In this document: positions 1 to 1,483 of the stretch, piece after piece
How the letters are laid out: each line of letters starts with the position of its first letter
Numbering within the stretch: position 1 is the first letter of the stretch
Virus record (IMG/VR): IMGVR_UViG_2529293049_000007
Origin: a virus
Taxonomy: Duplodnaviria > Heunggongvirae > Uroviricota > Caudoviricetes
DNA: 20,981 bases
Strand: one strand, 5' to 3'
The notes under the pieces: model-generated
The model's input: the letters and a program-made list of their open reading frames with translations, nothing else
What the model was told of the DNA's origin: nothing
The model's database searches: none
Position numbers and translations under genes: made by a program

Positions 1-249
1 ATGCGTATTGAAATCTGCATAGCCAAAGAAAAAATGACTAAAATGCCAACCGGTGCTGTGGATGCGTTAAAGGAAGAATTAACCCGACGCATCAGTAAAC
101 GTTATGACGATGTAGAGGTGATCGTAAAAGCTACCAGCAACGATGGCCTTTCTGTTACGCGCACCGCCGATAAAGATTCAGCTAAAACTTTTGTTCAGGA
201 AACTCTGAAAGATACCTGGGAGTCTGCTGACGAGTGGTTTGTTCACTAA
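1..249 (+). CDS. DinI-family DNA-damage-inducible protein (prophage cargo); promoter lies upstream of the window
   Basis: 82-aa ORF starting at base 1 with ATG; sequence MRIE..IAK...[16 protein letters not shown] matches the size (~81 aa) and conserved C-terminal WESAD-WFV signature of E. coli DinI as I recall it. Confidence 0.75.
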
Positions 250-384
250 TTAGCACGTAAAATCTGTAACGGCTGGAAATCATTCAATACTCGCACTATC
301 GGAAGTTCACCAGCCAGCCGCGGTACGTTCTTACATACGATGTACCGCTGTTCTCTTTACGATTTATAGCTGTACTGGTGAATT

Positions 385-645
385 ATGAGCAATCTGAATC
401 CATGCATGACGTGTGGTGCCTGTTGTGCATTTTCCGCGTCTCTTTTTACTGGGCAGACGCTGACGATGCTGGCGGAAAGGTTCCGGTCAGTCGCTCTGGC
501 GGGAACTCCGGGTGAAAACGCATATTGCTCTGTTTACAAAAACCGTCCGTCCACATGCAGGGAATTCGCAATGTCCGGAGAAAATGGCATCGCGAATGAA
601 GCATGTAACCGCGCACGGGAAAAATATGGATTTCCCAAAATCTGA
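385..645 (+). CDS. YkgJ-like Cys-cluster (CxxCxxCC) putative metal-binding protein, shorter than typical family members
   Basis: 86-aa ORF, ATG at 385 with GGTGA 3 nt upstream; N-terminal [12 protein letters not shown] and later [20 protein letters not shown] resemble the YkgJ/UPF0153 family; followed by a terminator. Confidence 0.55.
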
Positions 646-703
646 ATATTCTCCGCCGTGCAAAAATGCGAACAACATCACTTCACTAATCAGCCTGATA
701 TGG

Positions 704-725
704 CATAGTTAGCACGCTAACTATG
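704..725. repeat. perfect 22-bp palindrome (10-bp arms, 2-nt spacer): CATAGTTAGC-AC-GCTAACTATG
   Basis: Read directly from the sequence; lies in the convergent intergenic region between the YkgJ-like gene and the minus-strand ORF at 788..1483. Confidence 0.6.
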
Positions 726-756
726 ATAACAAACTAATACCCTAAAACTCATGGTT

Positions 757-785
757 CCGGGACTGGTCGTGGTCCCGTTTTTTTT
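757..785 (+). terminator. intrinsic terminator downstream of the YkgJ-like gene
   Basis: CGGGAC (758-763) pairs with GTCCCG (772-777) around an 8-nt loop, followed by a run of 8 T (778-785). On the minus strand the hairpin has no downstream U-tract. Confidence 0.55.
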
Positions 786-787
786 AT

Positions 788-1483
788 TCAGCCAGCAGGC
801 CATCCGACAGCATAACTGCGGATCGCCTTCAGCTCTGTCAGCGCCTCAACCTCTGCTTTCATCTGCAACTGCCGTGTATTAATCTCCACCCCCTTCGCAA
901 ACATCGCCTGCTCTGTCGCATCCGACAGGGCTATGATGTCTGCCGCCGTCACCGGCACCACATTATTATCCCCGTCGGTCCAGGCAAAACCTTCCGGAAG
1001 ACGGTTATTCTCTGCCATCAGGCGTGTCATGCTTATCCTGGACAACGTCTTCTTGCCGTAATCCCAGTTCCTTCCGTTGAATTCCATCATGTATTCCATA
1101 TTCTCCTGCACATCACGCCAGATATTAATCTCTTCCCTTTTCGCCGCTTTTGCCGCTTCCAGTACTGCTTCCGTGGCGACAAAGGCACTCACACTTCCGT
1201 ACGTTCCTGCTGTCAGCCCAGACCACAATGCTTTTCCGTGTTCTGTATTATCCGTTTCCGTTGCAGTATACGGCAGCCATACCTGTTCCCCTTTTTCATT
1301 CACCGCGTCTTCAAACTGCACCTCACAGTTTATCCCGCCATATTCGTTGCTGGCTGCATTTCGTACTGCAAGAATCTCTTTTCCCTTATCCACCATGACC
1401 TCCTCTATGATATGCGCTGAAATAATCCTGCCTGTCTGATACCCGGAGATGATGTCCATAGCATCGGACCACATGCACGCCAC
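788..1483 (-). CDS. hypothetical protein downstream of stf, function unknown (possible tail-fiber chaperone or accessory protein); start uncertain
   Basis: 231-codon ORF in the -1 frame relative to stf, overlapping its last 79 nt. Frame opens after a TAA at 1511-1513; candidate starts GTG 1483, ATG 1474, ATG 1459, none with a clear Shine-Dalgarno. Does not resemble lambda Tfa beyond a vague C-terminal W...WP pattern. Confidence 0.6.

What the first reader, a model, noticed from the sequence alone, without database searches (positions are those of the whole stretch)
1..790. Small cargo block convergent with the phage late operon
Two plus-strand genes (DinI-family, YkgJ-like) sit where lambda carries its b-region, in a visibly more A/T-rich segment than the phage genes. 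No terminator separates them, so they may be co-transcribed from a promoter upstream of the window. A prophage-borne DinI-family protein could modulate the host RecA/SOS response and hence prophage induction; the role of the Cys-cluster protein is unknown.
Basis: partly seen in the sequence, partly recalled or inferred. Interest (0 to 1): 0.5.

Follow-up and report, generated by a model that had tools for sequence, protein, structure and literature searches.

The report
SOS-controlled prophage dinI gene, dead ykgJ
The block is a common, already annotated accessory module at the end of lambda-like E. coli prophages: an intact DinI-like gene that probably sits behind a DNA-damage-responsive promoter just outside the window, followed by a broken copy of ykgJ, so it is ordinary rather than new.

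Summary

- **DinI-like gene (1-249):** it is intact. The same protein, residue for residue, is encoded by isolated phages such as mEp460. It is under purifying selection.
- **Location:** window 1-1782 is identical to an E. coli O104:H4 prophage. There the gene starts 262 bp inside the prophage boundary in yecE, so it is phage cargo, not a chromosomal flank.
- **Promoter:** just upstream of the window, that prophage has a sigma-70-like promoter overlapped by two perfect LexA boxes. The promoter is conserved in prophages at three different attachment sites and occurs in about 30% of complete E. coli genomes.
- **Correction 1:** the "YkgJ-like gene" (385-645) is a decayed copy. A 1-base loss and a 68-bp deletion together restore the frame. 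They scramble 19 residues and remove 3 of 10 cysteines. RefSeq marks it as a pseudogene.
- **Correction 2:** a stable hairpin followed by a U-rich tract (320-358) does separate the two ORFs.

The VT1-Sakai phage record already annotates this promoter, SOS box, DinI homologue and YkgJ homologue. The idea that prophage DinI damps induction is also already published. Verdict: real, ordinary and already known.

Side finding: the K-12 ecpE-ykgJ intergenic region is a relic of this dinI-like gene.

The parts
1..249 (+). Intact dinI-like gene (82 aa). Its probable promoter and two LexA boxes lie just outside the window, 65-16 nt upstream of position 1, as read in the identical O104:H4 locus.
   Evidence: Pfam DinI E 1.1e-19. 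Full-length match to E. coli DinI (1GHH, 7YWA), E 3.7e-13, 49% identity. The same protein at 100% identity is encoded by phages mEp460, SKA5 and PhiR55_1. dN/dS is 0.03-0.16 among phage alleles. LexA boxes and -35 element. A GAGGG ribosome-binding site lies 7-11 nt before the ATG.
320..358 (+). Terminator-like hairpin between dinI and the ykgJ remnant: 10-bp stem, 9-nt loop, then the U-rich tail UGUUCUCUUU.
   Evidence: dG -14.8 kcal/mol, z -2.9. The same hairpin in an intact module (L003) gives dG -16.2, z -4.8, and has a more U-rich tail. It is also present in the centroid fold of the whole spacer.
385..645 (+). Decayed ykgJ copy that stays open as an 86-aa ORF. One T is missing from the run at 430-433 and 68 bp are missing at 490/491.
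   Evidence: Alignments with intact copies from a dusA prophage (L003) and K-12. The two lesions replace 42 residues with 19 out-of-frame ones, and 3 of 10 cysteines are lost. The Pfam score falls from 43.5-44.6 bits to 29.7 bits. RefSeq calls it frameshifted. The same 1-base loss occurs in two other prophages that carry different further lesions.
704..725 (.). Perfect 10-bp inverted repeat CATAGTTAGC/GCTAACTATG with 2 nt between the arms. Role unknown.
   Evidence: Hairpin dG -9.9 kcal/mol, z -3.4.
758..785 (+). Intrinsic terminator closing the plus-strand block: 8-bp stem followed by T8. It ends 3 nt before the stop codon of the convergent tail gene.
   Evidence: Terminator scan. dG -11.9 kcal/mol. 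On the minus strand the hairpin has no U tract after it.
788..1483 (-). Context: last gene of the convergent late operon, a DUF4376 tail-fibre-assembly-like protein.
   Evidence: Pfam DUF4376 E 1.9e-16. RefSeq annotates it at the equivalent of window 788-1459.

Best explanation
The block is the attachment-site-proximal accessory ('moron') module of a lambda-like prophage integrated in yecE.

Anatomy, read from sequence:
1. A sigma-70-like promoter overlapped by two LexA boxes, just outside the window.
2. An intact dinI-like gene.
3. A terminator-like hairpin.
4. A dead ykgJ copy.
5. A strong terminator that separates the block from the convergent tail operon.

Proposed mechanism, inferred rather than shown:
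- In an undamaged lysogen, host LexA keeps the gene off.
- DNA damage activates RecA and LexA cleaves itself, so the DinI-like protein is made together with the rest of the SOS regulon.
- Like E. coli DinI, it binds RecA filaments through its acidic C-terminal helix and tempers RecA's co-protease activity.
- This feeds back on SOS functions and possibly on self-cleavage of the prophage's own S24-type repressor, so it would tune induction rather than trigger it.

The ykgJ-like ORF contributes nothing. It is a remnant that happens to remain open.
For: - **Inside the prophage:** homology to yecE ends at L001 11738, 262 bp before the ATG. An imperfect att core ending in TTAACTGCGTG is found at both ends, and the integrase lies at the other end.
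- **Truly phage-borne:** the identical protein is encoded by isolated or mitomycin-induced phages.
- **Regulation:** two perfect LexA boxes lie within 44 bp. One sits in the promoter spacer and one over the likely transcription start. The promoter is conserved in prophages at yecE, near btsS and at dusA, while the sequence further upstream diverges. The promoter plus the 5' part of the gene occurs in 1604 of 5426 complete E. coli genomes, with up to 6 copies per genome.
- **Family:** Pfam DinI hit, a full-length alignment to 1GHH, and all five acidic positions of the C-terminal helix conserved.
- **Selection:** dN/dS is 0.03-0.16.
- **Plausible target:** the prophage repressor has an HTH domain plus Peptidase_S24.
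- **Precedent:** a LexA-controlled prophage dinI homologue accumulates after mitomycin C in Salmonella Gifsy-2 (PMC3121763). The VT1-Sakai record annotates the same promoter and SOS box.
- **ykgJ decay:**. No E. coli phage record holds an intact ykgJ.
Against: - LexA binding, damage-induced expression and RecA binding were not tested for this protein.
- The promoter lies outside the window. It is read from the O104:H4 locus, which is identical only over window 1-1782.
- The protein scores below NCBIfam's cut-off for true DinI (73 bits against 111). It is a paralogue and may differ in activity.
- Non-polar dinI deletions in Gifsy-1 and Gifsy-3 did not measurably change induction (PMC3121763), so any effect may be subtle or may concern something other than induction.
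- The U tract after the spacer hairpin is interrupted, so some read-through into the ykgJ remnant is possible.
Confidence: 0.7

Rival explanations
1. One reading: a two-gene operon in which both the DinI-like protein and the Cys-cluster protein work and are co-transcribed.
For: The 86-aa ORF is open, still passes the Pfam cut-off (29.7 bits against 23) and has a GGTGA ribosome-binding site. No sigma-70-like promoter was found in the spacer, so any expression would come from the dinI promoter. The VT1-Sakai record labels one promoter for both genes.
Against: A 1-base loss plus a 68-bp deletion replaces 42 residues with 19 out-of-frame ones and removes Cys47, Cys58 and Cys70. RefSeq marks it as a pseudogene. 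Related prophages break ykgJ in different ways or have replaced it. No E. coli phage record has an intact copy. A hairpin with a U-rich tract precedes it.
Confidence: 0.08
2. The genes are ordinary chromosomal genes flanking the attachment site, not phage cargo.
For: A close ykgJ copy is chromosomal in nearly all E. coli: parts of window 1-800 match 5255 of 5426 genomes (K-12 ykgJ locus).
Against: At this locus the chromosomal neighbours are yecD and yecE, and homology to them stops 262 bp upstream of dinI. The same module lies beside other attachment sites and in packaged phage genomes.
Confidence: 0.02
3. A Gifsy-type induction switch: the LexA-controlled dinI promoter mainly serves to express a small antirepressor encoded downstream.
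For: [quoted passage not shown] The promoter layout here is similar.
Against: The 135-nt spacer holds no plus-strand ORF of 20 aa or more. The downstream ORF is a ykgJ remnant. The prophage repressor has a Peptidase_S24 domain, which fits induction by self-cleavage and not by antirepression.
Confidence: 0.03
4. The segment persists mainly as a DNA target for recombination or integration by other phages, and the protein is incidental.
For: Nakamura et al. found that a 96-bp attachment site used by lambda-like phages to integrate into prophages is homologous to the K-12 ykgJ-ecpE intergenic region (PMC8112680). That region is homologous to this dinI-spacer segment.
Against: dN/dS of 0.03-0.16 shows that the protein itself is under selection. 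The promoter and LexA boxes are conserved across attachment sites. I could not place the 96-bp site on this sequence, because the figure is not held.
Confidence: 0.1

Closest known systems
H0001/H0002 module of Stx1 prophage VT1-Sakai (Sp15), GenBank AP000400
   Same: Same layout beside the attachment site: annotated putative promoter, putative SOS box, a DinI homologue (95% protein identity to this one), a truncated YkgJ homologue, then convergent tail-fibre genes and lom.
   Different: It is integrated in yehV/mlrA rather than yecE. Its ykgJ remnant is broken at a different point (66 aa, no Pfam hit). Its first LexA box has one mismatch, and only one box is annotated.
E. coli chromosomal DinI (PDB 1GHH; also listed for entry 7YWA)
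   Same: Same length and fold family. 49% identity over the full length. The conserved TWESAD(D/E)WFV C-terminus retains all five acidic helix positions. A LexA-box promoter is present.
   Different: It is a paralogue: it scores below the NCBIfam equivalog cut-off (73 bits against 111). It is phage-borne. It has two LexA boxes here (from my own knowledge, the chromosomal dinI promoter has one).
Gifsy-1/-2/-3 dinI-antirepressor-irsA operon of Salmonella (Lemire et al. 2011, PMC3121763)
   Same: A prophage dinI homologue as the first gene behind a LexA-controlled promoter. It was shown to be induced by mitomycin C.
   Different: The Gifsy operon lies 1.3 kb downstream of the replication genes and carries the antirepressor needed for induction. 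Here the module is next to the attachment site, no antirepressor ORF follows, and the repressor is of the self-cleaving type.
E. coli K-12 ykgJ (b0288)
   Same: K-12 YkgJ is 94% identical to the intact prophage copy, and the same 135-bp spacer lies upstream at about 92-95% identity.
   Different: In K-12, ykgJ is intact and the upstream dinI-like gene is the relic. In the window the reverse holds.
Tum of coliphage 186
   Same: A LexA-controlled phage protein whose second half resembles DinI (as stated in PMC3121763).
   Different: Tum is a 146-aa fusion with antirepressor activity. The protein here is a stand-alone 82-aa DinI-like domain.

Membership tests
DinI-like family (Pfam PF06183) | Profile match above the curated cut-off, covering the whole domain | tested here: met
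   70.9 bits against 24.2; profile positions 1-63 of 63.
DinI-like family (Pfam PF06183) | Negatively charged C-terminal helix, proposed to mimic DNA when DinI binds RecA | tested here: met
   In the alignment to 1GHH, all five acidic positions of the helix are D or E, and TWESAD(E/D)WFV is conserved. The helix model itself comes from the literature cited in PMC3121763.
DinI proper (NCBIfam NF007893, equivalog) | Score at or above the equivalog cut-off | tested here: not met
   73 bits against 111. This is a paralogue, which matches RefSeq's name 'DinI-like family protein'.
SOS (LexA) regulon member | LexA box CTGT-N8-ACAG overlapping the promoter | tested here: met
   Two perfect boxes at L001 11942-11957 and 11970-11985, with -35 TTAACA at 11936. 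They are conserved in three prophages. They were read in the O104:H4 locus, not in the window itself.
SOS (LexA) regulon member | LexA binding and damage-induced transcription | not testable with these tools
   This needs EMSA or ChIP, and RNA measurements with and without mitomycin C.
DinI-like family (function) | Binding to RecA filaments and modulation of co-protease activity | not testable with these tools
   Biochemistry is required.
YkgJ family / CxxCxxCC domain (Pfam PF03692) | Profile match above the cut-off | tested here: met
   29.7 bits against 23. Intact copies score 43.5-44.6 bits.
YkgJ family / CxxCxxCC domain (Pfam PF03692) | Uninterrupted reading frame colinear with the 109-aa protein, with the full set of 10 cysteines | tested here: not met
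   A 1-base loss and a 68-bp deletion; 19 out-of-frame residues; Cys47, Cys58 and Cys70 lost.
Gifsy-type LexA-controlled antirepressor operon | Small antirepressor ORF downstream of dinI, and a repressor that is not cleaved | tested here: not met
   No plus-strand ORF of 20 aa or more in 250-384. The repressor has a Peptidase_S24 domain.
Lambdoid b-region accessory module ('moron') | Lies between the tail-fibre genes and the attachment site, has its own promoter and terminator, and differs in composition | tested here: met
   Position. Promoter. Terminator at 758-785. G+C 45% against 56%.

The most novel reading that the evidence does not exclude
The phage dinI-ykgJ block is the source of E. 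coli's own ykgJ locus.

- The whole K-12 ecpE-ykgJ intergenic region is a decayed dinI-like gene plus the phage spacer.
- In 71 of 80 other enterobacterial species, the family's gene sits between ompW and yciC. ompW is a known lambdoid attachment site, and E. coli has no gene at that position.

On this reading, a phage captured ykgJ next to ompW, carried it behind dinI, and delivered it to the ecp locus. There ykgJ was kept and dinI decayed. This reverses the direction (chromosome to phage) proposed by Nakamura et al. 2021.
Probability: 0.4. Interest if true: 0.3.

Novelty: already known. Interest (0 to 1): 0.15.

Why it matters
It matters little as a discovery. The module was annotated in the VT1-Sakai record, it occurs in about 30% of complete E. 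coli genomes, and its proposed role as a brake on induction is already in the literature.

It remains a reasonable experimental target. E. coli genomes carry up to six copies of an SOS-controlled RecA-binding paralogue, and Stx phage records carry close homologues. In aggregate these could shift the threshold for induction and toxin release after antibiotic exposure. No direct test of this in E. coli phages turned up in the library searched.

The side observation, that the chromosomal ykgJ locus carries a dinI relic, bears on how prophage cargo becomes core genome.

Tried and rejected
- **Rfam, L001 11600-13000, permissive threshold:** only a chance-level CssrB hit, 23 bits against a gathering score of 76. 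No known RNA family lies in the spacer.
- **Antirepressor search:** I looked for a small ORF between dinI and ykgJ, as in Gifsy phages, and found none.
- **Exact repeat of 12 bp or more between the two prophage ends:** none found. The att core appeared only when both junctions were aligned to K-12 yecE: 11 exact bases within about 23 imperfect ones.
- **PDB and NCBIfam searches for YkgJ:** no informative hit, so the family's function stays unknown.
- **ykgS as a possible name for the K-12 dinI relic:** the gene is not in that region.
- **'dinI relic means ykgJ originated in phages':** I considered this simple reading and tempered it. The family is an old chromosomal gene in Enterobacteriaceae.
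- **Not run:** large protein-database searches and structure prediction. The finding resolves without them, and the second ORF is a remnant.

Full report
**What is in the window.** Positions 1-790 contain two plus-strand ORFs, at 1-249 (82 aa) and 385-645 (86 aa). Pfam assigns the first to the DinI-like family (E 1.1e-19). It assigns the second, weakly, to the CxxCxxCC domain to which YkgJ belongs (29.7 bits, cut-off 23). Downstream, on the opposite strand, lie a DUF4376 tail-fibre-assembly-like gene ending at 788, a tail-fibre gene with collagen-like repeats, and lom. The segment is A/T-richer than the rest. G+C is 45.4% against 56.2%, and no other 790-bp stretch of the window falls below 50.6%.

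**Where it comes from.** Window 1-800 is 100% identical to seven E. coli O104:H4 chromosomes. Identity to strain 2011C-3493 is perfect over window 1-1782. Beyond that the window differs by five 45-bp repeat units in the tail-fibre gene and by 45 mismatches, so it probably comes from a close relative of that prophage. I used the 2011C-3493 locus (L001) to look leftward.

**Phage cargo or chromosomal flank?**
- Upstream of the dinI-like gene lie yecD and a 5' fragment of yecE.
- Alignment with K-12 shows that chromosomal homology stops at L001 11738, which is 262 bp before the ATG.
- The rest of yecE resumes about 48 kb away, next to a tyrosine integrase and an excisionase. The same imperfect core, ending in TTAACTGCGTG, is present at both junctions. 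This agrees with the 21-bp yecE attachment site reported by Nakamura et al. (PMC8112680).
- The same module lies beside other attachment sites, near btsS (mlrA/yehV in VT1-Sakai) and at dusA.
- It is also present in phages recovered as particles or by induction. ASU11 and Lys8385Vzw carry it, and mEp460, SKA5 and PhiR55_1 encode a protein 100% identical to this one.

The position between the tail-fibre genes and the attachment site corresponds to lambda's b region.

**The promoter and the LexA boxes.** The 262 bp between the attachment site and the ATG (35% G+C) contain, in order:
- a -35 element, TTAACA (TTGACA in a related prophage);
- a perfect CTGT-N8-ACAG box in the promoter spacer;
- an A/T-rich -10 region;
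- a second perfect box over the likely transcription start;
- a GAGGG ribosome-binding site.

A perfect box is expected about once per 65 kb. Two within 44 bp, directly upstream of a dinI homologue, is not chance. This roughly 60-bp stretch is nearly invariant in prophages at three different attachment sites, while the sequence just upstream of it diverges. The promoter plus the 5' two-thirds of the gene occurs in 1604 of 5426 complete E. coli genomes, with up to six copies per genome.

**The DinI-like protein.**
- It aligns end to end with E. coli DinI (1GHH; also listed for 7YWA) at 49% identity. The C-terminal TWESAD(D/E)WFV motif and all five acidic helix positions are conserved.
- It scores below NCBIfam's cut-off for DinI proper (73 bits against 111), so it is a paralogue.
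- Among seven phage alleles, dN/dS is 0.03-0.16, so the protein is maintained by selection.
- The prophage's repressor carries an HTH domain and a Peptidase_S24 domain. This is the self-cleaving type that depends on activated RecA, so a RecA-binding protein made during SOS has an obvious potential target.

**The YkgJ-like ORF is a remnant.** Intact copies of 109 aa exist in a dusA prophage (L003) and in K-12.
- Against them, the window lacks one T of a five-T run, at 430-433. It also lacks 68 bp at 490/491. Together the two lesions restore the reading frame.
- The result replaces 42 residues with 19 out-of-frame ones and loses Cys47, Cys58 and Cys70.
- The 1-base loss is shared with two other prophages that carry different further lesions, so it predates the deletion.
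- VT1-Sakai's copy is truncated elsewhere. ASU11 has an NleG effector gene in the position after dinI.
- No E. coli phage record contains an intact ykgJ. RefSeq annotates the window's copy as frameshifted.

I regard it as non-functional, with about a 10% chance otherwise.

**Transcription units.** The 135-nt spacer folds into a 10-bp hairpin (320-348, dG -14.8 kcal/mol) followed by UGUUCUCUUU. In the intact module the hairpin is stronger and the tail more U-rich. The simple scan missed it only because of its 9-nt loop. The statement that no terminator separates the genes is therefore doubtful, although the interrupted U tract leaves room for read-through. A canonical terminator (758-777 plus T8) closes the block 3 nt before the stop codon of the convergent tail gene. 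A perfect 10-bp inverted repeat at 704-725 is unexplained. Rfam finds nothing, and the spacer has no ORF that could be a Gifsy-type antirepressor.

**Comparison with what is known.**
- The VT1-Sakai (Sp15) GenBank record annotates exactly this arrangement: "putative promoter of H0001 and H0002 genes", "putative SOS box", H0001 similar to DinI and H0002 similar to YkgJ.
- Lemire et al. showed that Gifsy prophage dinI homologues are the first gene of LexA-controlled operons and accumulate after mitomycin C. They also found that non-polar dinI deletions did not change induction (PMC3121763).
- A paper on O145:H25 Stx2a phages already suggests that phage DinI would limit induction (PMC8456039).
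- Another study links a prophage DinI-like gene to later quinolone resistance (PMC10575684).

The finding is real but already known, both as an annotation and as a hypothesis. What remains open is the experimental test.

**Side finding.**
- The K-12 ecpE-ykgJ intergenic region aligns over almost its whole length with the 3' two-thirds of the phage dinI-like gene. It carries a 22-bp deletion and a frameshift, and the same 135-bp spacer follows.
- Nakamura et al. saw this homology, concluded that phages took it from the chromosome, and do not mention dinI in their main text.
- In one genome per species, 71 of the 80 best YkgJ-family loci lie between ompW and yciC. These include E. albertii, Salmonella arizonae and Klebsiella pneumoniae.
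- K-12 has no gene and no relic at that position.
- The nine loci closest to the phage copy lie elsewhere. One of them sits next to a lom-like gene in Citrobacter braakii.
- Because ompW is a common lambdoid attachment site (PMC8112680), one possible route is capture of ykgJ by a phage and later delivery to the ecp locus. I rate this at about 0.4. It is inference only.

Noticed in passing
L005 5184-5495 (K-12 ecpE-ykgJ intergenic region): Almost the entire region is a decayed dinI-like gene, running from about nt 70 to the stop codon with a 22-bp deletion and a frameshift. The same 135-bp spacer as in the window follows it. No pseudogene is listed there in the K-12 record.
   Followed up: yes
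L012-L091; L092 2665-3020 (K-12 yciC-ompW intergenic region): In 71 of the 80 best YkgJ-family loci (one genome per species), the gene lies between ompW and yciC. K-12 has neither a gene nor a relic there. The nine loci most similar to the phage copy are in other contexts.
   Followed up: partly
L011 13364-13690 (same prophage, outside the window): A 108-aa protein consists of a LexA DNA-binding domain with a largely conserved recognition helix. It has no cleavage site and no S24 domain. It might act on LexA boxes, including those in front of dinI.
   Followed up: partly
window 1676-1782 and onward: The tail-fibre gene has collagen-like 45-bp tandem repeats. The window has five fewer units (225 bp) than O104:H4 2011C-3493, where the gene is annotated as a pseudogene. 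There are also 45 mismatches over the next 10.9 kb.
   Followed up: partly
window 704-725: A perfect 10-bp inverted repeat, CATAGTTAGC/GCTAACTATG, lies between the ykgJ remnant and the terminator. TTAGCACG also occurs just after the dinI stop codon, at 249-256. No function was found.
   Followed up: no
window 246-341, minus strand: RefSeq annotates a 31-aa 'hypothetical protein' inside the dinI-ykgJ spacer. Equivalent ORFs elsewhere are labelled 'capsid protein' or 'nucleocapsid protein' fragments. These look like spurious calls.
   Followed up: no
L011 384-1154: At the integrase end of the prophage, the 3' part of yecE is annotated as a complete 256-aa DUF72 ORF that overlaps the integrase gene's 3' end. 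The phage may therefore supply a replacement start for the disrupted gene.
   Followed up: no
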